Shown: positions 32,632 through 40,332, numbered from the stretch's first letter. The stretch is 64,000 bases of DNA from a candidate division FCPU426 bacterium (GCA_963847625.1 CAWKAR010000024.1:64001-128000); one strand, 5' to 3'. Notes: a model not told the origin generated them from the letters alone. Numbers and translations: made by a program.

Positions 32632-32832
32632 ATGAAACATTTAATGTTTATTTTGATTTTAGTTATTCCTCAAGGGGTGGCCTTAGGGACGGCACTGCCC
32701 ACACCCGTCAACGTTCACATTCAACGTTCTCCCATGGACAAGATTGTCATCCGTCTCCGACAACAGAATATCCAAATCCAACGGGATTTAAGGGCGGGCA
32801 AGCTGACCAAGGACCAAGCCAAAGCCCTTAAG
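32632..32832 (+). pseudogene. Secreted protein paralogous to 3457-3840, truncated by IS1380
   Basis: RLRQQNIQIQRDLRAGKLTKDQAKALK aligns with RMKNQLLRIHEGVKTGKLTKQQAQALR. Similarity stops at the IS1380 boundary. Confidence 0.75.
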
Positions 32833-34536
32833 CCCGGATTTCCCAGATGAAATTACCTTTCGAGTATAATAAGGCGTCGTTTGGCCATACAAACAAAGGT
32901 TTTTCTTCACTTTGGGGACCACGAGAGGGGGGAATGCAATGGGTGAAAGGGGAAAAGACGCTCTTCGGGTGGTTTTTGATCCTGGTCTCAAGCTGGAGTT
33001 CCATGGCGCGAAGGTCACTTCCGATGGCGGGTTGATTCCCTATCGTGAACTCGATGAAGCCTTTGGTTTGACTGACAGAACGGAAAACCTTCTGAGGGAT
33101 CGGCGAACCGGCAAGAATACGCAACATACGATGACGGCGCTTTTGCGGCAATCAATCTACAGCCGCCTAGCCGGTTACGAGGACACCAACGACGCAGAAC
33201 GATTGAGTGTTGATCCGGCGATGCGGCATGTGATCGGAGGACGGGCCAAGGAAAAACAAGCTGCCTCCACCAGCCAGATGGGACGTTTCGAGACGGAAGT
33301 TCTCACCCAGTCGAAGAACCAGACCGGTCTGATTGACCTATCTGGCCAATGGATTGATGGTGTCCATGAAAAAAAGCCCATCCAGCAGATTATTCTCGAC
33401 ATGGACAGCTCCGTGAGTGAAACCTACGGGGACCAAGAAGGTTCCTTGTACAACGGTTACTTCGGCTGTACCTGTTACCATCCCCTGTTTTGTTTCAACC
33501 AGTTTGGCGATTTGGAACGGGCAATGTTGCGCAACGGCAATGTGGCCAGCGCCCACGAGTGGCGGTCGGTTCTTGAACCAGTGGTTGTCCGTTATCGGGG
33601 TCTTTCCATCAGCCGTTTTTTCCGGGGTGACGCGGCCTTCGCCCGTCAGGAACTATACGAGTACCTAGAAGACGAAGGATACCTTTATGCGATCCGCCAA
33701 CCCGCCAATGGCGTGCTACAAAGAGAAATTGAGCCATTTTTGACCCGTCCCGTGGGCCGCCCTTCCCACAAGCCGGTTGTCCGGTATCACAGCTTCCAAT
33801 ACCAAGCCGTCAGCTGGGACAAACCCCGCCGCGTGGTGGCGAAGATTGAGCATCACAACGGCGAACTTTTCCCGAGGGTGGGTTTCATCGTGACGAACAT
33901 GCGACGACCGGCACCCCAGGTGGTGAAGTTCTACAACGGAAGAGGTACGGCTGAGCAATGGATCAAGGAGGGAAAGTACGCGATGAAGTGGACAAGACTA
34001 AGCTGCCACGACTTCGCGGACAACCAAGTAAGGTTGCAACTATTTGCACTGGCTTACAACTTGGGCAACTTCCTTCGCCGTCTAGCCCTGCCAGAACTGG
34101 TGAAGCATTGGTCGCTGACGACGTTGCGAGAAAAACTTATCAAAATCGGAGCTAACGTTATCCGCCATTCGCGGTACGTGGTTTTCCAGATGGCGGAGGT
34201 GATGGTTACCCAACGCCTGTTTGCTGAAATCCTTGGACGGATAAGGCTACTGGCGATGGTAAGGCCGCGAGCGCCAGTACTGCGATAACCGCAGGAACAC
34301 TTCATGGCTTCAACCGGATCAACCATCGTGGGATAGGTGTGCGTTCACAACGAGAATTGGCTTTCTGGAAGGTCATTTTCAACTTTTTTGGGGCACAGAA
34401 ACCCTTTTTTGGGCTCATTTCGCTGGCCTTGGGCCAGAAAATTCCGGATACGGGTGGAAGAAGCGGGGGGGGGGAATATAATGAGAAACAAATTACCCGG
34501 CAATGTTTTCAGAGAAGGTCATCTGGGAAATTCCGG
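32833..34536 (+). mobile_element. IS1380-family insertion sequence
   Basis: IRs CCCGGATTTCCCAGATG and CATCTGGGAAATTCCGG. 5-bp target duplication TTAAG at 32828-32832 and 34537-34541. Confidence 0.92.
32939..34288 (+). CDS. IS1380-family transposase
   Basis: VTSDGGL, GYEDTND, LDMDSS, RGDAAF and YNGRGTAEQWIKEGK. Confidence 0.95.
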   Translation: MGERGKDALRVVFDPGLKLEFHGAKVTSDGGLIPYRELDEAFGLTDRTENLLRDRRTGKNTQHTMTALLRQSIYSRLAGYEDTNDAERLSVDPAMRHVIGGRAKEKQAASTSQMGRFETEVLTQSKNQTGLIDLSGQWIDGVHEKKPIQQIILDMDSSVSETYGDQEGSLYNGYFGCTCYHPLFCFNQFGDLERAMLRNGNVASAHEWRSVLEPVVVRYRGLSISRFFRGDAAFARQELYEYLEDEGYLYAIRQPANGVLQREIEPFLTRPVGRPSHKPVVRYHSFQYQAVSWDKPRRVVAKIEHHNGELFPRVGFIVTNMRRPAPQVVKFYNGRGTAEQWIKEGKYAMKWTRLSCHDFADNQVRLQLFALAYNLGNFLRRLALPELVKHWSLTTLREKLIKIGANVIRHSRYVVFQMAEVMVTQRLFAEILGRIRLLAMVRPRAPVLR

Positions 34537-34546
34537 TTAAGAACGG

Positions 34547-34810
34547 ACAAAGATAGCATGTATGGGCCAGCAACCTACGTAGTAGCTTTGATCAATAGTA
34601 GCTGATCAAAATAACGCGGGTTGCTCCTGGTAAGGAGCCTATCCGCATACGGAGGGCTGACCCATGGGAAATAATAGGAACAAAGATAGCATGTATGGGC
34701 CAGCAACCTACGTAGTAGCTTTGATCAATAGTAGCTGATCAAAATAACGCGGGTTGCTCCTGGTAAGGAGCCTATCCGCATACGGAGGGCTGACCCATGG
34801 GAAATAATAG
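34547..34810 (+). repeat. 133-bp tandem duplication of the IS110 left end including the first 14 nt of the ORF
   Basis: 34547-34677 is identical to 34680-34810. Start codons at 34664 and 34797. Confidence 0.92.
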
Positions 34811-35903
34811 CACGGTGGTAGGGCTGGATGTTCATAAGGAAACGATCACGATTGCAGTTTTAAGGCCCGACAAGGATCGTCCTGATCCCTCGGTTACGGT
34901 TGAAAATCAGCCATCAATCATTGAAAAGAAAGTACGGGAACTTAATCGCCGCCATGCCCCACTGGAATTCGTTTATGAGGCTGGGCCTGGGGGATTTGCT
35001 TTGTATAGGCAGATTACCCAATTGGGACACCCTTGTGCGGTGATTGCGCCCGCATGGATGCCGATGAAACCTGGGGACCGAGTCAAGACGGACCGAAAGG
35101 ACGCAGAAAAGCTGTCTTGGTATTGGCGCATGAGGGATTTGAAAGAAGTCCGGGTACCCACGCCCGAAGAAGAATCCGTGAGGGATTTGCTGCGTGTCCG
35201 GGAAGATGTTCTCGCAAACCAGTTGAGAGCCCGTCATCGGTTATTGAAATTCCTGCTTAGGCAAGGCCGGATTTATCGGGGTGGCAAACACTGGACCCAA
35301 GCCCATAGGGAATGGTTGAGACACCAGAAGTTTGAGCTGCCAAATCTCGTAAAGACCTATGAAGCGAATTACCGAATTTTGGCTGAGATTGACGTGCACT
35401 TGGCTGATTTGAATTGTGAAGTTGAATTGCTGGCACAAGACGAGAAATATCGAATTGCTGTCAGCTATTTGAAATGCCTGAAAGGCGTTAACACACTCAC
35501 GGCCATGACTTTATTAGCAGAAAGCGGAGATTTCAGGCGGTTTAAAAACGCCCGCAGTTATATGCGATATACGGGAATGGTCAGTTGGGAAGACAGCACC
35601 GGAAGCCATGTTTACCGGGGCGGGATTGTCAAATCCGGAAATGCCCATTTGAGGCGAGTGCTAGTCCAAGGGGCATGGACCTATCAGCTACGAAGCCTTG
35701 GGAGTCCAACACTCGCTAAACGGAGAAAAGGTTGTCCCCCGGAAGTTATACATTTAGCACGAAAAGCTGATGAACGTTTGCATTTGAAGTTTCGGCGGAT
35801 GGTAAGCCGAAACAAACGGTCTCAGGTGGCGGTAGTGGCCATCGCACGGGAATTGGCTGGCTTTATCTGGGCGATTGGACAGATGATCCCATCCGATCAG
35901 TAA
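34797..35903 (+). CDS. IS110-family DEDD bridge recombinase
   Basis: GLDVH, YEAG and KTDRKDA (DEDD residues), EDSTG catalytic-serine loop, KSGNAHLRR and AIARELA. Confidence 0.96.
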   Translation: MGNNSTVVGLDVHKETITIAVLRPDKDRPDPSVTVENQPSIIEKKVRELNRRHAPLEFVYEAGPGGFALYRQITQLGHPCAVIAPAWMPMKPGDRVKTDRKDAEKLSWYWRMRDLKEVRVPTPEEESVRDLLRVREDVLANQLRARHRLLKFLLRQGRIYRGGKHWTQAHREWLRHQKFELPNLVKTYEANYRILAEIDVHLADLNCEVELLAQDEKYRIAVSYLKCLKGVNTLTAMTLLAESGDFRRFKNARSYMRYTGMVSWEDSTGSHVYRGGIVKSGNAHLRRVLVQGAWTYQLRSLGSPTLAKRRKGCPPEVIHLARKADERLHLKFRRMVSRNKRSQVAVVAIARELAGFIWAIGQMIPSDQ

Positions 35904-35931
35904 TAGATCCGATGAGAAGAAAAAGAAGGAC

Positions 35932-36133
35932 GAGCTCTGATTTCAGGAGCGTGGCGCGGCACGGAGAACCCTCGACGACCCCTTGTGCAATGAAGTCTTA
36001 TTTCATGACGCACGGACAAAGATCGAGGCAGCTCCCGACGACAGGTCATCATGCGTCCCTGCCCTTTGGGGTAATACGCGAATATCAGTTTGATCAACCG
36101 TCGGAAATGGCTACGCTCTTGGAATCAGGGCTC
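35932..36133 (+). ncRNA. Predicted bridge/seek RNA of the IS110 element
   Basis: 35932-35955 pairs with 36110-36133 and encloses two stem-loops. Their internal loops carry matches to the target (GACCCCTT, GGACAAAG) and to the donor junction (ATATCAG). Confidence 0.8.
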
Positions 36134-36198
36134 TGTCGTGCTGGTCCGTGAAAAGACCAACACCCTAGAATCTGAAGGTTGACTGGCCCATACATATC

Positions 36199-37215
36199 AG
36201 GGGTCAGGCCTACAATTTACACTTTATAACCACTGATTATTTAATAAAATACCGATATGCCAAGGCCAAAACGGATTCATTATGAAGGGGCCGTGTATCA
36301 CGTCACTTCCCGCGGGAATGAGCGCCGCAAGATAGTGATGGATGACTCGGACCGATGGTTATTCCTGAGAATTCTCGGGGAAATGATCGGGGAAAACGGG
36401 ATCGTATGCCACGCCTGGGTTTTAATGGACAATCATTACCATCTTTTACTGGAAACCCCGCAAGCCAATTTATCCGTGGCCATGAAACATCTGAACGCCC
36501 AATATACCCAGCGATTCAACAAGAAACACCACAGGACTGGTCATTTATTCCAAGGCCGGTATAAGGCCATCGTTATCGAGAAGAACAGTTATTTACAGGA
36601 ATTATGCCGGTATGTGGTATTGAATCCCGTCCGGGCCAAGATGGCCAAGCAACCGGGGGGATGGAAATGGAGCAGTTACCGGGCCACGGCAGGCCTGGAA
36701 AGGCCGGAACCATGGTTGGAGGTGGATTGGATCTTGGGACAATTTGGGAAAGAGAGGAAAAGAGCCCAAAAGGCCTATAGGGAATTTGTGGAAGAGGGAA
36801 TGGGGAGAAAAGAAACGCCATGGGAAAGGTTGCATTCCAGGGTTTACCTGGGCGGGAAAGAATTTTTAGACCATGTCCATGAAATGGGACAAAAACACAA
36901 ACACTTGGATATTCCGAAATACCAAAAACATGTGGTGAAACAAAACCCGGAAGCCTTATTAAAAAAGGTGGGGGAAATATACGGTATGAAGCCCGGGGAA
37001 ATACTGAAAGCGGGGAAAAGAAGGAGCGAAGCGAGGGAGGCGGCGGTATATTTGCTGAAGAAGGAAGCGGGATTAAGCCTGAGGGAAATAGGGGAAAGAA
37101 TGGGAGTGGGTTTTTCAGCGGTGGGGAACCAATGGGCAAAGGTCAAAAAGAAGCTGGGGACGGATAAAAGGTTTGCTCAAAGACTTGTAAAGTGTAAATT
37201 GTAGGCCTGACCCCT
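36199..37215 (+). mobile_element. Core of a RAYT-like element bounded by inverted repeats
   Basis: AGGGGTCAGGCCTACAATTTACACTTTA (36199-36226) and its exact inverse (37188-37215). The outer GGACAA/TTGTCC parts are displaced to 34545-34550 and 38731-38736 by the IS110 copies. Confidence 0.8.
36257..37204 (+). CDS. REP-associated (RAYT-like) Y1 HUH tyrosine transposase with C-terminal DnaA_C-like HTH
   Basis: YHVTSRGN, LMDNHYHLL (HUH), GHLFQGRY, RYVVLNPVRA, WSSY and C-terminal SLREIGERMG. The stop codon lies inside the right IR. Confidence 0.92.
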   Translation: MPRPKRIHYEGAVYHVTSRGNERRKIVMDDSDRWLFLRILGEMIGENGIVCHAWVLMDNHYHLLLETPQANLSVAMKHLNAQYTQRFNKKHHRTGHLFQGRYKAIVIEKNSYLQELCRYVVLNPVRAKMAKQPGGWKWSSYRATAGLERPEPWLEVDWILGQFGKERKRAQKAYREFVEEGMGRKETPWERLHSRVYLGGKEFLDHVHEMGQKHKHLDIPKYQKHVVKQNPEALLKKVGEIYGMKPGEILKAGKRRSEAREAAVYLLKKEAGLSLREIGERMGVGFSAVGNQWAKVKKKLGTDKRFAQRLVKCKL

Positions 37216-37280
37216 GATATGTATGGGCCAGTCAACCTTCAGATTCTAGGGTGTTGGTCTTTTCACGGACCAGCACGACA

Positions 37281-37482
37281 GAGCCCTGATTCCAAGAGCG
37301 TAGCCATTTCCGACGGTTGATCAAACTGATATTCGCGTATTACCCCAAAGGGCAGGGACGCATGATGACCTGTCGTCGGGAGCTGCCTCGATCTTTGTCC
37401 GTGCGTCATGAAATAAGACTTCATTGCACAAGGGGTCGTCGAGGGTTCTCCGTGCCGCGCCACGCTCCTGAAATCAGAGCTC
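37281..37482 (-). ncRNA. Predicted bridge/seek RNA, second copy
   Basis: Reverse complement of 35932-36133. Confidence 0.8.
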
Positions 37483-37510
37483 GTCCTTCTTTTTCTTCTC
37501 ATCGGATCTA

Positions 37511-38617
37511 TTACTGATCGGATGGGATCATCTGTCCAATCGCCCAGATAAAGCCAGCCAATTCCCGTGCGATGGCCACTACCGCCACCTGAGACCGTTT
37601 GTTTCGGCTTACCATCCGCCGAAACTTCAAATGCAAACGTTCATCAGCTTTTCGTGCTAAATGTATAACTTCCGGGGGACAACCTTTTCTCCGTTTAGCG
37701 AGTGTTGGACTCCCAAGGCTTCGTAGCTGATAGGTCCATGCCCCTTGGATTAGCACTCGCCTCAAATGGGCATTTCCGGATTTGACAATCCCGCCCCGGT
37801 AAACATGGCTTCCGGTGCTGTCTTCCCAACTGACCATTCCCGTATATCGCATATAACTGCGGGCGTTTTTAAACCGCCTGAAATCTCCGCTTTCTGCTAA
37901 TAAAGTCATGGCCGTGAGTGTGTTAACGCCTTTCAGGCATTTCAAATAGCTGACAGCAATTCGATATTTCTCGTCTTGTGCCAGCAATTCAACTTCACAA
38001 TTCAAATCAGCCAAGTGCACGTCAATCTCAGCCAAAATTCGGTAATTCGCTTCATAGGTCTTTACGAGATTTGGCAGCTCAAACTTCTGGTGTCTCAACC
38101 ATTCCCTATGGGCTTGGGTCCAGTGTTTGCCACCCCGATAAATCCGGCCTTGCCTAAGCAGGAATTTCAATAACCGATGACGGGCTCTCAACTGGTTTGC
38201 GAGAACATCTTCCCGGACACGCAGCAAATCCCTCACGGATTCTTCTTCGGGCGTGGGTACCCGGACTTCTTTCAAATCCCTCATGCGCCAATACCAAGAC
38301 AGCTTTTCTGCGTCCTTTCGGTCCGTCTTGACTCGGTCCCCAGGTTTCATCGGCATCCATGCGGGCGCAATCACCGCACAAGGGTGTCCCAATTGGGTAA
38401 TCTGCCTATACAAAGCAAATCCCCCAGGCCCAGCCTCATAAACGAATTCCAGTGGGGCATGGCGGCGATTAAGTTCCCGTACTTTCTTTTCAATGATTGA
38501 TGGCTGATTTTCAACCGTAACCGAGGGATCAGGACGATCCTTGTCGGGCCTTAAAACTGCAATCGTGATCGTTTCCTTATGAACATCCAGCCCTACCACC
38601 GTGCTATTATTTCCCAT
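37511..38617 (-). CDS. IS110-family DEDD bridge recombinase, second copy
   Basis: Same 368-aa protein as the left copy except VLVQ to VLIQ (G35664 vs T37750). Confidence 0.96.
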   Translation of the reverse strand: MGNNSTVVGLDVHKETITIAVLRPDKDRPDPSVTVENQPSIIEKKVRELNRRHAPLEFVYEAGPGGFALYRQITQLGHPCAVIAPAWMPMKPGDRVKTDRKDAEKLSWYWRMRDLKEVRVPTPEEESVRDLLRVREDVLANQLRARHRLLKFLLRQGRIYRGGKHWTQAHREWLRHQKFELPNLVKTYEANYRILAEIDVHLADLNCEVELLAQDEKYRIAVSYLKCLKGVNTLTAMTLLAESGDFRRFKNARSYMRYTGMVSWEDSTGSHVYRGGIVKSGNAHLRRVLIQGAWTYQLRSLGSPTLAKRRKGCPPEVIHLARKADERLHLKFRRMVSRNKRSQVAVVAIARELAGFIWAIGQMIPSDQ

Positions 38618-38792
38618 GGGTCAGCCCTCCGTATGCGGATAGGCTCCTTACCAGGAGCAACCCGCGTTATTTTGATCAGCTACTATTGATCAAAGCTACT
38701 ACGTAGGTTGCTGGCCCATACATGCTATCTTTGTCCCGTGTGAATTGATTACTTAAATATTGGCTTATTTAAACGGCATAAAGAGGTGTTAA

Positions 38793-39830
38793 GTGATAAA
38801 AAAATTTTTTATATATATAGTTGTTGTTGGCTTTTCGTTACCTGTGCTTGCTGAGTCACCAGTGGCGCCGCCAGATAATGGTCTTCCTCCACTTCAACAA
38901 TCGAATAACAATTTGACCTCTGCCCTAGGTAATGATTATTTCCAAAACGTCTATGATGACCTTCCCCCTGCTCAAATAATGGACGCGAGTTTACTTCCAA
39001 AACCAACCCCTATAGTTACCTATCACAATTATTCTAATGGGAGCAGTATTCCAATTCGTCAACCAACACCCACTTTTTGCCAGGAAATTCAACAAGCCAG
39101 AAAAAACGATCCTCATTGGGTTAGTGATTTTTCAACCGTTATTTCTCATGGAAAGGGGGATTTAATGTTGCGCTCTGATATTTTTTCTTCGGATTTAATA
39201 ATATTACATCGTCTTTTTAATGACCCATTAGCTGATGTTTTTATGAAGTTAACTGCTGCCGCAGGAATCGCTGATTTATGGGACCAACTAAATAAAAAAC
39301 ATCCTTCAGATAAAGCCAGAGCCAATTTTGAGGCTTGGACAAAATATTTCACGCAGTCATGGAATTCGGTAGATATGGGGCAAGCTTGGGACGTAAATGA
39401 TAAATGTATTGCAACCCGAAACCTCCTTTATGGGTTGGAAAAGAATCTCAATAGTGATTATGCAAATACCCCGGAAGGTAAAACGGAAGCGAAAAGTAGT
39501 CCCCATTGTTACGATCCCATTGATTTGATTGCGAAGGGGATGGCCTTGAAAGGGAAATTAGTCTGCGGAAGATTTAGAGTAATCCAAAAAATTGATGAAA
39601 AAAGTTACCTTGTAGGACTGCCATATACAGGAGAACCGAGTATTGACAATAGCTCATTTGTGGTTTTTGGTAACTCGAAAACGGATAGCGATTTTGATTA
39701 TTACGATAATGAAATGGTGAATCTCATAGTTATCGTCGCAGGAACTTATAGCTATCTGACTGTGACCGGAGCCAATGCCACAGTTATTAAACTCAAAGAT
39801 TGGAAAAAAAATACAGCAAACAATAACTAA
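38793..39830 (+). CDS. AT-rich secreted hypothetical protein
   Basis: 345-aa ORF, GAGG RBS with GTG start, signal peptide ending PVLA. Confidence 0.65.
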   Translation: MIKKFFIYIVVVGFSLPVLAESPVAPPDNGLPPLQQSNNNLTSALGNDYFQNVYDDLPPAQIMDASLLPKPTPIVTYHNYSNGSSIPIRQPTPTFCQEIQQARKNDPHWVSDFSTVISHGKGDLMLRSDIFSSDLIILHRLFNDPLADVFMKLTAAAGIADLWDQLNKKHPSDKARANFEAWTKYFTQSWNSVDMGQAWDVNDKCIATRNLLYGLEKNLNSDYANTPEGKTEAKSSPHCYDPIDLIAKGMALKGKLVCGRFRVIQKIDEKSYLVGLPYTGEPSIDNSSFVVFGNSKTDSDFDYYDNEMVNLIVIVAGTYSYLTVTGANATVIKLKDWKKNTANNN

Positions 39831-39842
39831 TTTGTTGGCCCT

Positions 39843-40007
39843 CACACAAAAAAGTCCAGGCCAACATTTGACACTTTACAAAAAAGCTCGCCCCTTAGAA
39901 ACTTATTTATGCCTTGACTCAAGAGAATCCGTTATGAAGGTGCCGTTTACCATGTGACGAATAGGGGTAACGAGCAAAAAATCTTTTGGGATGATACAGA
40001 TCGGTGA
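39843..40007 (+). pseudogene. Decayed RAYT remnant with degenerate terminal repeat
   Basis: 39909-40007 reads MP*LKRIRYEGAVYHVTNRGNEQKIFWDDTDR*, against the intact MPRPKRIHYEGAVYHVTSRGNERRKIVMDDSDR. Upstream ACAAAAAAGTCCAGGCCAACATTTGACACTTTA resembles the IR. Confidence 0.85.
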
Positions 40008-40332
40008 AAAAAGGGGCCTGGCCAACGCAAAAGGTGCTTGGCACCAAGCTCCTCAGCTTGTTGCAGGGCCCCGCTCCGCATGCAGACCTTCCTTAAACCA
40101 TTCAAAGAGGTCTGTATAGTACCGATTTCCATCAATAATCCCGGCCATAGGCCGGGATTAACACATGGATGAATCGGCACAGCGAGTGGCAGTTGAACAC
40201 TCAACACTTTAAATATTAATTAGCTCCTACAATAGAGCTTTAAACATTCGCAAGATAAGTTTTTCCACTTGGAAAGCCTTATCGCGTACTAGAGTTTCAA
40301 AAGAGACGTATAAAAGACGGGAGGGGAATGAA

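What the first reader, a model, noticed from the sequence alone, without database searches (positions are those of the whole stretch)
34545..38736. RNA-guided IS110 element occupying both terminal repeats of a RAYT-like transposon, forming an inverted IS110-RAYT-IS110 composite
Seen: two near-identical IS110 elements lie tail-to-tail around a HUH Y1 transposase. Removing each IS at its duplicated AG core restores the same 34-bp sequence on both sides, GGACAA-AG-GGGTCAGGCCTACAATTTACACTTTA, which is the RAYT terminal inverted repeat hit twice at the same base. Known: IS621 targets enterobacterial REPs, and IS4321/IS5075 target Tn21-family 38-bp IRs. Inference: this element is a programmed parasite of a RAYT element's ends. 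It may disable both ends, or create a 4.2-kb unit that can invert the RAYT gene or move as a composite. I do not know of this host-target pairing being described.
Basis: partly seen in the sequence, partly recalled or inferred. Interest (0 to 1): 0.9.

Follow-up and report, generated by a model that had tools for sequence, protein, structure and literature searches.

The report
Guided insertion sequence hitting a transposon's ends
Two copies of an RNA-guided insertion sequence sit in both terminal repeats of a small tyrosine-transposase element, because the guide RNA matches the repeat's outer tip, a new example of a known habit of this insertion-sequence family.

Summary
Two copies of a 1,515-bp IS1111-type (IS110 family) element, differing at one base, lie tail-to-tail around a Y1/HUH gene. 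Removing them at the AG core restores the same 34-bp inverted repeat on both sides.

The central unit is a known class: a TIRYT gene with GGGGWSAS-headed terminal repeats (a "TIRtron", Di Nocera 2013), conserved without any IS in related genomes.

The IS has nine copies in this genome. All nine right flanks start GG(G/A)T(C/T)AG. Three copies flank TIRYT genes and six sit at dispersed repeats headed by the same motif. So the target is a 12-13-nt tip (GGACAA-AG-GGGTC), not the 34-bp repeat.

The 3' non-coding region folds into a stem with an 8x8 internal loop. One side is complementary to AGGGGTC and the other is identical to GACAAAG. A sister-species copy (88% nt identity) differs in exactly these loops and sits at a different site.

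The inverted arrangement follows from orientation-specific insertion into inverted repeats. Composite mobility is unlikely because both outer ends are left ends and the unit is single-copy.

A 133-bp tandem duplication of the left junction is unexplained, and the assembly could not be checked with reads.

Verdict: new member of a known kind, moderate interest.

The parts
34545..34552 (+). Outer half-site / leader of the left terminal repeat (GGACAAAG, ending in the AG core)
   Evidence: Read. Identical to the B-guide segment of the IS non-coding region.
34553..34677 (+). Extra partial left end of the IS (IS nt 1-125). With 34545-34552 it forms the first unit of a 133-bp tandem duplication.
   Evidence: the repeat finder family D1; BLAST hit C24:98553-98677; sequence.
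34678..34685 (+). Second leader GAACAAAG, directly before the complete left IS copy
   Evidence: The same variant leader (GAACAAAGGGGTCAGG) occurs at terminal repeats in relatives.
34686..36198 (+). Left IS1111-type IS copy, body of 1,513 bp. AG cores lie at 34684-34685 and 36199-36200. It has 13-bp subterminal inverted repeats ATGTATGGGCCAG / CTGGCCCATACAT, a 7-bp left extension AGATAGC and a 3-bp right extension ATC.
   Evidence: Features compared with PMC11187229.
34797..35903 (+). Transposase/recombinase gene of the left copy (368 aa, DEDD plus Transposase_20 domains)
35963..36035 (+). Predicted seekRNA / bridge-RNA target-binding module: two stacked stems enclosing an 8x8 internal loop and an apical hairpin
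   Evidence: strand folding and fold_alignment with the sister-species IS. 19 pairs are predicted, with 1 compensatory G:C to A:U change.
35977..35984 (+). T guide GACCCCTT (complement of target top strand AAGGGGTC)
   Evidence: It differs at 4 of 8 loop positions in the sister IS.
36014..36021 (+). B guide GGACAAAG (identical to the target top strand, so it pairs with the bottom strand)
   Evidence: It differs at 3 of 8 loop positions in the sister IS.
36200..36226 (+). Left terminal inverted repeat of the TIRYT element (GGGGTCAGGCCTACAATTTACACTTTA). The first G is shared with the IS core.
   Evidence: The head fits the published GGGGWSAS motif.
36257..37204 (+). TIRYT gene: Y1/HUH tyrosine transposase with a DnaA-C-like helix-turn-helix tail. 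The HYH motif and the RYVVLNP tyrosine motif are present.
   Evidence: Class assignment rests on passages of PMC6006769 (subclass 2.1) and PMC3733652.
37188..37214 (-). Right terminal inverted repeat of the TIRYT element. It overlaps the last 7 codons and the stop codon of the gene.
37216..38728 (-). Right IS copy, body of 1,513 bp. Cores lie at 37214-37215 and 38729-38730. The tnp gene is at 37511-38617; mirrored guides lie at 37430-37437 (T) and 37393-37400 (B).
38729..38736 (-). Outer half-site / leader of the right terminal repeat (CTTTGTCC, the complement of GGACAAAG)

Best explanation
A 1,515-bp IS1111-type member of the IS110 family is guided by a seekRNA/bridge RNA encoded in its own 3' non-coding region. 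The guide directs insertion to the sequence GGACAA-AG-GGGTC.

That sequence is the outer tip of the terminal inverted repeats of a TIRYT element: a RAYT-like Y1 tyrosine transposase flanked by GGGGWSAS-headed repeats, called a 'TIRtron'. The same tip heads a dispersed family of solo copies of such repeats in this genome.

Insertion is orientation-specific and the two repeats of the TIRtron are inverted. Two independent insertions therefore give an IS-TIRYT-IS structure with the IS right ends facing inward. The structure is a by-product of targeting, not a functional composite.

Shown here: IS anatomy, copy number, flank consensus, guide/target complementarity, divergence of the guide loops in a sister-species IS that sits at a different site, and the existence of the same TIRtron architecture without IS in relatives.

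Inferred: that the RNA is made and guides the recombinase (by analogy with ISEc11, ISKpn4, ISPa11 and IS621), that the two insertions were separate events, and any effect on TIRYT activity.
For: 1. Copy number and flanks.
- The genome holds 9 full copies differing at 3 positions or fewer.
- All 9 right flanks begin GG(G/A)T(C/T)AG, and 7 of them begin GGGTCAG.
- 7 of the 9 copies have an assembled left flank, and all 7 end in AAG. A left-end fragment at a contig end (C26) follows CGACAAAG.

2. IS1111 hallmarks (criteria from passages of PMC11187229).
- Perfect 13-bp subterminal inverted repeats with 7-bp and 3-bp extensions.
- A 295-nt non-coding region downstream of tnp, against 111 nt upstream.
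- The top-strand-complement segment lies 5' of the bottom-strand segment.

3. Guide segments.
- GACCCCTT and GGACAAAG are the longest target matches in the non-coding region.
- Both reach 8 nt or more together in only 40 of 20,000 mononucleotide shuffles. The rest of the IS gives at most 6-7 nt.
- They lie on opposite sides of an 8x8 internal loop closed by the stem CCUCGA/UCGAGG.

4. Natural retargeting.
- The same-genus genome G001 has one copy at 87.6% nt and 92% aa identity. It sits at CATACC-AG-TATTA.
- The last 128 nt of the two non-coding regions are identical. Inside the module, differences fall on the two loops (4 of 8 and 3 of 8 positions) and the apical hairpin, plus one compensatory stem pair.

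5. Fit to the repeat tip.
- The 13-mer GGACAAAGGGGTC does not occur intact anywhere in the genome. It is reconstituted only at the two occupied TIRtron ends.

6. The host element is a native unit.
- TIRYT homologues occur in 27 of 40 related genomes, with 22 matches in G001.
- In 11 of 19 fetched relatives' loci, GGGGWSAS-headed repeats flank the gene on both sides in inverted orientation, often with an (A)ACAAA leader and with no IS.

7. A second, 35%-identical TIRYT at C39 has its own inverted repeats, GGGGTCAGGCCTGAAAA(T/A)AGAAAATT. The left one is occupied by the IS. The right one has CG where the AG core should be and is empty.
Against: - There is no RNA evidence. Rfam 15 gives no match in 34300-39000, and the fold is not better than shuffles (z = -1.36).
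- Targeting is loose on the left side. The C39 site matches only 8 of 13, while 14 empty sites with 2-3 mismatches exist. Base pairing alone therefore does not predict occupancy.
- The covariation rests on a single sister IS with a single insertion, whose own site matches its predicted target at only 8 of 13.
- A third variable patch in the non-coding region (CCCTTTGGGGT here, CAATGTTGGC in G001) is unexplained.
- The 1.5-kb IS copies are near-identical and some contigs break inside them: C26 ends at IS nt 122, C34 at nt 1, and C19 starts at nt 9. Which outer flank belongs to which copy, and the orientation of the core, rest on the assembly alone.
- The 133-bp tandem duplication of the left junction has no explanation in this model.
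Confidence: 0.82

Rival explanations
1. The 4.2-kb IS-TIRYT-IS unit is a functional entity. Either it is a composite transposon that moves as a whole, or it is an invertible cassette in which the paired IS copies flip or regulate the TIRYT gene.
For: Two 1.5-kb inverted repeats differing at one base are a good substrate for homologous inversion of the 1-kb core. IS110-family recombinases can catalyse inversion between inverted sites (Durrant et al., PMC11208160; passage seen).
Against: - Both outer ends are IS left ends and both inner ends are right ends, so no left-right pair in direct orientation spans the cargo.
- The 1,011-bp core occurs once in the genome.
- No IS-TIRYT-IS unit was seen in the 19 relatives' TIRYT loci fetched from 40 related genomes, and the IS itself was found in only one relative.
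- The arrangement is fully predicted by orientation-specific insertion into inverted repeats.
- Inversion was not tested. No raw reads of the source were available.
Confidence: 0.08
2. The structure is an assembly artefact, or the product of one inverted duplication (IS plus adjacent repeat copied to the other side), and not two independent insertions.
For: - Contigs break inside IS copies, and the copies are 99.8-100% identical.
- The left junction carries an odd 133-bp tandem duplication.
- The metagenome contigs laid on the region never span a whole IS.
Against: - Relatives carry both terminal repeats at the same distances from the gene without any IS. The second repeat is therefore native, not imported with an IS.
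- The identity between the two arms stops exactly at the inner end of the 27-bp repeat and at the 8-bp leader.
- The right copy has a private base at position 979.
- Short contigs from two peat-metagenome runs bridge the TIRYT 3' end, the repeat and the IS right end at 37092-37307 and 37099-37403. This is weak support: low depth, 4-7 differences, possibly related strains.
Confidence: 0.07
3. Target choice is made by the protein or by DNA structure (for example recognition of the repeat or its hairpin-bearing variants), and the matches in the non-coding region are incidental.
For: - Occupancy does not track the number of guide matches. An 8-of-13 site is filled while 11-of-13 sites are empty.
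- A 2026 preprint reports a structure requirement in addition to base pairing for ISPpu10 (10.64898/2026.03.19.712850; only the search listing and the start of the abstract were seen).
Against: - Both 8-nt matches together arise in 0.2% of shuffles.
- They sit in the loop positions expected of a target-binding module, and they change in the sister IS while the flanking 128 nt stay identical.
- The family mechanism has been shown experimentally for other IS1111 members (PMC11187229, passages read).
Confidence: 0.03

Closest known systems
[quoted passage not shown]
   Same: An IS1111-type element with subterminal inverted repeats inserts at one fixed position and in one orientation within the terminal inverted repeat of another transposon. 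Both ends of a host element can therefore carry inverted copies.
   Different: The host here is a Y1/HUH (TIRYT) element rather than a DDE Tn3-family transposon. The site straddles the outer tip of the repeat, and the same tip also heads a dispersed solo-repeat family.
IS621, ISPpu9 and ISPpu10 (IS110 group), which insert into REP sequences, the repeats associated with RAYT transposases (Choi 2003 reference entry; PMC8450116 and PMC12288879 abstracts)
   Same: An RNA-guided DEDD recombinase IS uses a multicopy repeat linked to a Y1 tyrosine transposase as its landing site.
   Different: Those elements belong to the IS110 group, with the bridge RNA in the left end, and their targets are palindromic REPs. 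Here the element is IS1111-type with a 3' guide RNA. Its target is the tip of a non-palindromic terminal repeat, and the copies flanking the transposase gene itself are hit.
ISEc11 / ISXne4 natural reprogramming of the seekRNA (Siddiquee et al. 2024, PMC11187229; passages read)
   Same: Two related IS keep the RNA stems but differ in the two short target-matching segments, and they sit at different targets. The top-strand match lies 5' of the bottom-strand match, and the two matches overlap in the target.
   Different: The pair here is closer (92% aa against 72%) and occurs in two species of one genus. Nothing has been tested experimentally.
TIRtrons / TIRYT genes (Di Nocera et al. 2013, PMC3733652; Quentin et al. 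2018 subclass 2.1, PMC6006769; passages read)
   Same: A RAYT-like Y1 gene with a C-terminal DnaA-C-like helix-turn-helix, flanked by terminal inverted repeats carrying GGGGWSAS (here GGGGTCAG). The downstream repeat overlaps the 3' end of the gene, and a moderately abundant solo-repeat family is present in the genome.
   Different: In the passages I read, those papers do not mention any IS occupying the repeats.

Membership tests
IS110 family, IS1111 group | DEDD (RuvC-like) N-terminal domain plus the Transposase_20 C-terminal domain | tested here: met
   PF01548 (E = 1.2e-12) and PF02371 (E = 2.1e-17). NF033542 at 204.6 bits against a cut-off of 140.
IS110 family, IS1111 group | Subterminal inverted repeats of about 11-13 bp, with terminal extensions of 7 (or 6) bp on the left and 3 bp on the right (PMC11187229) | tested here: met
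   ATGTATGGGCCAG / CTGGCCCATACAT (13 bp, perfect), preceded by AGATAGC and followed by ATC.
IS110 family, IS1111 group | The longer non-coding region lies downstream of tnp | tested here: met
   111 nt upstream against 295 nt downstream.
IS110 family, IS1111 group | The seekRNA has a top-strand complement 5' of a bottom-strand complement, and the two overlap in the target | tested here: met
   GACCCCTT (35977-35984) precedes GGACAAAG (36014-36021), and they overlap at AAG. That the RNA is expressed was not tested.
IS110 family, IS1111 group | Site- and orientation-specific insertion without a conventional target duplication beyond the shared core | tested here: met
   All 9 right flanks share the motif, and all 7 assembled left flanks plus C26 end in AAG. 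Orientation relative to the repeat is constant.
TIRYT / TIRtron (Di Nocera 2013) | A RAYT-like Y1 HUH tyrosine transposase | tested here: met
   PF01797 (E = 4.1e-13); NF047646 at 86.2 bits against a cut-off of 80. HYH and Y..NP motifs were read in the translation.
TIRYT / TIRtron (Di Nocera 2013) | The gene is flanked by terminal inverted repeats, not REP hairpins, and many carry GGGGWSAS | tested here: met
   A 27-bp perfect inverted repeat headed by GGGGTCAG. The same architecture appears in 11 of 19 relatives' loci.
TIRYT / TIRtron (Di Nocera 2013) | C-terminal helix-turn-helix (Bac_DnaA_C / HTH_23 / HTH_28), as in subclass 2.1 of Quentin 2018 | tested here: inconclusive
   Bac_DnaA_C gives E = 8.2e-06 but 26.2 bits, below the 31.5-bit cut-off. 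A weak DnaA C-terminal match is also seen in NCBIfam.
Classical RAYT / REP (REPtron) | Flanking repeats are short GTAG-tagged palindromes (REP/REPIN) present in high copy | tested here: not met
   The 27-34-bp repeat flanking this gene is not self-complementary. The family has roughly 25-30 members, not hundreds. Some long-form members do carry an internal hairpin.
Composite transposon | The outer IS ends form a pair competent for transposition, and the whole unit is found at more than one place | tested here: not met
   Both outer ends are left ends. The core is single-copy in the genome. Mobility itself is not testable with these tools.

The most novel reading that the evidence does not exclude
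This IS lineage is a specialised hyperparasite of the TIRYT repeat system, and it retargets within that system. Here its guide loops are set to the tip of the TIRtron terminal repeat. In the sister species G001 the loops predict GTACCC-AG-TATTG. That sequence occurs once perfectly and at least 70 times as CAACCCAGTATTG, in ~53-bp tandem arrays that abut TIRtron repeats at four loci. If real, RNA-guided IS would be tracking, and possibly restraining or rearranging, a family of Y1-transposase elements whose own biology is unknown. The inverted IS pair could also make the TIRYT gene an invertible segment.
Probability: 0.15. Interest if true: 0.65.

Novelty: new member of a known kind. Interest (0 to 1): 0.4.

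Why it matters
This is a clean natural example of how an RNA-guided insertion sequence chooses a multicopy 'safe' landing site, namely the tip of another mobile element's terminal repeat. It comes with a closely related copy in a sister species that carries different guide loops.

That pair is a ready-made test case for reprogramming rules in the less-studied IS1111 branch: loop length, tolerance to left-side mismatches, and the requirement for the AG core.

It also draws attention to TIRYT elements. These are widespread and multicopy in this bacterial family (27 of 40 relatives), and their mechanism is unknown. IS-occupied and empty repeats offer natural variants for asking which part of the repeat the tyrosine transposase needs.

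It does not reveal a new kind of system.

Tried and rejected
- Rfam 15 scan of 34300-39000 at E <= 1 gave no family, so the guide RNA had to be found by hand.
- The search for related loci with the transposase in genome contigs returned 26 loci, the best at 55% identity. The 5 loci where plausible IS1111-type ends could be placed (L017, L020, L024, L025, L030) sit at unrelated sequences. These loci were too distant for covariation.
- Sequencing runs: no run held half or more of the sampled words. The best were peat-metagenome contig sets at shares of 0.26 and 0.24. When laid they gave only short pieces. Parts without cover say nothing. No piece spans an IS, the left outer junction or the 133-bp duplication, so the assembly, the orientation of the core and the duplication remain unverified.
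- I looked for a donor-binding pair of guides like that of IS621. ATATCAG in the non-coding region equals the right-end tip. A candidate complement of the left end (CATGC) does not change where the sister IS's left extension changes (AGATAGC to AGATAAT). I therefore make no donor-loop claim.
- I tried to explain the 133-bp duplication in four ways: slippage at ATAGCA or ACGG microhomology, self-insertion at IS nt 125, unequal exchange at AG cores, and contig chimerism. None reproduces the observed junction AATAATAG-GAACAAAG-ATAGC. The simplest account is a plain tandem duplication plus one G-to-A change.
- I checked whether a second IS110-family element (355 aa, 3 copies) also targets the repeat. 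It does not. It lies about 125 bp downstream, in a different repeat.
- The idea that the second terminal repeat was carried in with an IS was rejected on the relatives' architecture.

Full report
**What is there**

The window is G000:C24:64001-128000. Between 34545 and 38736 lie two copies of a 1,515-bp insertion sequence (1,513-bp body plus one AG core) in inverted orientation, right ends facing inward. They surround a 1,015-bp unit that carries one gene.

- The repeat finder gives inverted arms of 1,553 nt at about 100% complementarity. The two IS bodies differ at one base, position 979.
- Each IS encodes a 368-aa protein with the DEDD and Transposase_20 domains. It is called 'IS110 family RNA-guided transposase' by NCBIfam, at 204.6 bits against a cut-off of 140.
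- The central gene (36257-37204, 315 aa) is a Y1/HUH tyrosine transposase. It matches PF01797 and NF047646 'REP-associated tyrosine transposase' (86.2 bits against 80). It also has a sub-threshold DnaA-C-like helix-turn-helix tail.
- Read directly, the outer flanks are GGACAAAG and its complement. The inner flanks are GGGTCAGGCCTACAATTTACACTTTA and its complement.

One feature was not reported. The left junction (GGACAAAG plus IS nt 1-125) is present twice in tandem, at 34545-34677 and 34678-34810. The second leader reads GAACAAAG.

**What kind of IS it is**

The element has perfect 13-bp subterminal inverted repeats (ATGTATGGGCCAG / CTGGCCCATACAT). These are preceded by 7 bp (AGATAGC) and followed by 3 bp (ATC). 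It has 111 nt of non-coding sequence upstream of tnp and 295 nt downstream.

These are the hallmarks given for the IS1111 group, as opposed to the IS110 group, by Siddiquee et al. 2024 (PMC11187229, passages read) and Durrant et al. 2024 (PMC11208160, passages read). More distant relatives from other phyla (32-55% aa identity) show the same end pattern (AGAC...ATGG ... CCAT-ATC-AG) at unrelated targets.

**Where it goes**

The genome holds 9 full copies: 8 complete and 1 cut by a contig start. They differ at no more than 3 positions, so the expansion is recent.

- All 9 right flanks begin GG(G/A)T(C/T)AG. Seven begin GGGTCAG, one GGGTTAG and one GGATCAG.
- 7 of the 9 copies have an assembled left flank, and all 7 end in AAG. 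Four read (G/A)(G/A)ACAAAG, and the others read GCAAAG, AAAAAG and ATAAG.
- A left-end fragment at the end of contig C26 follows CGACAAAG.

Only 3 of the 9 copies lie next to a Y1 gene: the two in the window, and one at C39 that sits 61 bp upstream of a 35%-identical paralogue. The other six sit at dispersed copies of a repeat family with three parts:
- an A-rich leader followed by GGGGTCAG(G/A)(C/T)(C/T);
- optionally an internal hairpin of the type CACGCACCGCAGCGTG, sometimes with further insertions;
- a tail like AACATTCAACACTTTA.

By eye the family has roughly 25-30 members. A loose head search gave 99 sites, of which 9 are occupied. Fourteen empty sites are within 2-3 mismatches of the 13-mer, and 11 of these look like family members.

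So the IS recognises a short tip shared by the family, not the 34-bp repeat.

**The guide RNA**

Rfam has no matching family, so I searched the IS for matches to the reconstructed site.

- The longest matches lie in the 3' non-coding region. GACCCCTT (35977-35984) is the complement of AAGGGGTC. GGACAAAG (36014-36021) is identical to the left half-site.
- Both reach 8 nt together in 40 of 20,000 mononucleotide shuffles of the non-coding region. The remaining 1.2 kb of the IS gives at most 6-7 nt.
- The order (top-strand complement first) and the overlap in the target (AAG) are as described for IS1111 seekRNAs.
- Folding places the two segments on opposite sides of an internal loop. The loop is closed by CCUCGA/UCGAGG and GGAG/CUCC and has an apical hairpin between the segments. 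The energy is not better than shuffles (z = -1.36).

The strongest support comes from the sister species. Among 40 related genomes, only G001 (same genus) has a close homologue, in one copy at 92% aa and 87.6% nt identity. It has the same ends but sits at CATACC-AG-TATTA.

- Aligning the two non-coding regions gives 92% mean identity. The last 128 columns are identical, and differences are concentrated in a few short patches.
- In the 83-nt module, the consensus fold has 19 pairs and one compensatory G:C to A:U change.
- The two 8-nt loop sides read CGACCCCU / GACAAAGA here and CAAUACUU / UACCCAGA in G001. That is 4 and 3 changes.
- The G001 loops predict GTACCC-AG-TATTG. The actual G001 site matches the central 8 nt (CCAGTATT).

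This is the same kind of natural reprogramming reported for ISEc11 and ISXne4. It rests on one pair and one insertion.

**The host element is a known class**

Di Nocera et al. 2013 (PMC3733652, passages read) described RAYT-like genes flanked by terminal inverted repeats instead of REPs. Many of these repeats carry GGGGWSAS, some overlap the gene's 3' end, and some have solo-repeat families. The authors named them TIRYT genes and TIRtrons. Quentin et al. 2018 (PMC6006769, passages read) equate them with subclass 2.1, whose members carry Bac_DnaA_C or HTH tails.

The window element fits. Its head is GGGGTCAG, its 27-bp repeats are perfect, the downstream repeat covers the last seven codons and the stop, and it has a DnaA-C-like tail.

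- TIRYT homologues occur in 27 of 40 related genomes and are multicopy in some: 22 matches in G001 and 14 in G006.
- Of 19 relatives' loci fetched, 16 have at least one GGGGWSAS head beside the gene. Eleven have heads on both sides in inverted orientation at the same distances as here. None carries the IS, and several have the leader (A/G)AACAAA.

The core is therefore a native TIRtron and the IS copies are additions. This also rules out the idea that one repeat arrived with an IS.

**How the structure arose**

The exact 13-mer GGACAAAGGGGTC does not occur intact anywhere in the genome. It is reconstituted only at the two ends of this TIRtron, which are thus the best-matching sites and both filled.

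Insertion has a fixed polarity relative to the site and the two repeats are inverted. Two hits must therefore give left ends outward and right ends inward. The second TIRtron at C39 illustrates the rule: its left repeat (with AG) is filled, and its right repeat, which has CG in place of the core, is empty.

The AG core is present on both sides of the IS, so the inner junction reads ...ATC-AG-GGGTCAG. The GGGGTCAG head is preserved, and only the GGACAA leader is separated from it. Whether that impairs the TIRYT is unknown.

**What the composite probably is not**

Both outer ends are left ends, so the recombinase has no left-right pair in direct orientation around the cargo. The 1,011-bp core is single-copy. 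I therefore rate composite transposition as unlikely. Homologous inversion between the 1.5-kb arms is plausible but untested.

**Limits**

- The genome is a 63-contig draft and some contigs break inside the IS.
- No run held half or more of the sampled words. The peat-metagenome contig sets that held parts gave only short pieces.
- Two of those pieces bridge the TIRYT 3' end, the repeat and the IS right end (37092-37307 and 37099-37403, with 4-7 differences).
- One piece shows a 95%-similar left repeat preceded by ...TAAAGACAA instead of the IS. That is an empty site with the leader GACAAAG.
- One piece joins the IS right end to another long-form repeat.
- These pieces are weak hints that occupancy is polymorphic. 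They may come from related strains or paralogues.
- The 133-bp duplication is unexplained (see Tried and rejected).

**Comparison and novelty**

Functionally this works like two known cases: IS4321/IS5075 in the terminal repeats of Tn21-family transposons, and IS621/ISPpu9/ISPpu10 in REPs.

I found no description of an IS110/IS1111 element in TIRYT repeats. The searches were:
- 'TIRYT': 3 papers hold the term, 2 listed;
- 'IS1111' with 'RAYT': 1 unrelated paper;
- 'IS110' with 'REP' and 'RAYT': 16 papers, 14 listed, none on this from the listing;
- 'bridge RNA', 'IS110', 'repetitive extragenic palindromic', 'natural target': 14 papers.

The library lacks most subscription journals, and I did not see supplements.

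I class the finding as a new member of a known kind: a new IS1111-type element with a new class of host-repeat target, plus a natural retargeting pair. It adds context only and I did not test it.

Noticed in passing
window 34545-34810: A 133-bp tandem duplication of the flank/left-end junction of the left IS copy (GGACAAAG plus IS nt 1-125, then GAACAAAG plus the full IS). The junction AATAATAG-GAACAAAG-ATAGC fits none of the simple mechanisms I tried. Contig C26 also ends at IS nt 122.
   Followed up: partly
window 32828-34540: An IS1380-family element (tnp 32912-34288, NF033539) with 14 further BLAST matches in this genome, 10 of them near full length at 99.8-100% identity. Its right end lies 4-5 bp from the TIRtron leader, it interrupts a small ORF on its left, and I could not see a target duplication.
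   Followed up: partly
window about 39846-40025: Remnant of a second TIRtron 1.1 kb downstream. It has a degenerate repeat (AAAAAAGTCCAGGCCAACATTTGACACTTTA) and a 33-aa N-terminal TIRYT fragment at 39909-40004. A head-like AAAAAGGGGCCTGGCC with a hairpin-bearing long form follows.
   Followed up: partly
G001 loci L075, L085-L088 (for example G001:C3:193331-193498, C6:193955-194550, C11:132998-133261): About 53-bp tandem arrays rich in CAACCCAGTA(C/T)... abut the terminal repeats of TIRtrons in the sister species. The target predicted from the sister IS's guide loops (GTACCCAGTATTG) occurs once perfectly at the end of one array and at least 70 times with two mismatches inside arrays. The one IS copy there is not in an array.
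   Followed up: partly
G000:C21:17529-18897, plus copies on C30 and C14: A different IS110-family element (355-aa transposase, 3 copies) sits about 125 bp downstream of a solo terminal repeat, inside another repeat (ACAATGAATAATGGACAATGA...). A 36-nt piece of its left end lies inside a long-form terminal repeat at C13:124078-124112.
   Followed up: partly
G000:C3:32913-33986 and C13:3913-4986 (L073, L074): A second IS1111-type element in 2 copies, 50% aa identity to the one studied. It has 13-bp subterminal repeats ATGAATGAGCCAG and sits at a different target (right flank ATCTAA(A/C)C).
   Followed up: no
G000:C21:19620 and 24979, C32:32091, C57:37512: Long-form terminal repeats carry further insertions inside their hairpin: about 170 nt in three C21 copies (16240, 19620, 24979) and about 40 nt in the C32 and C57 copies. 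This suggests the hairpin loop is itself an insertion site for small elements.
   Followed up: no
G000:C39:50395-50470: A solitary 76-nt fragment of the IS left end (93% identity) with no transposase behind it. It follows ...GGTAACCCAG, so it is an old, decayed copy at a site that does not resemble the repeat tip.
   Followed up: no
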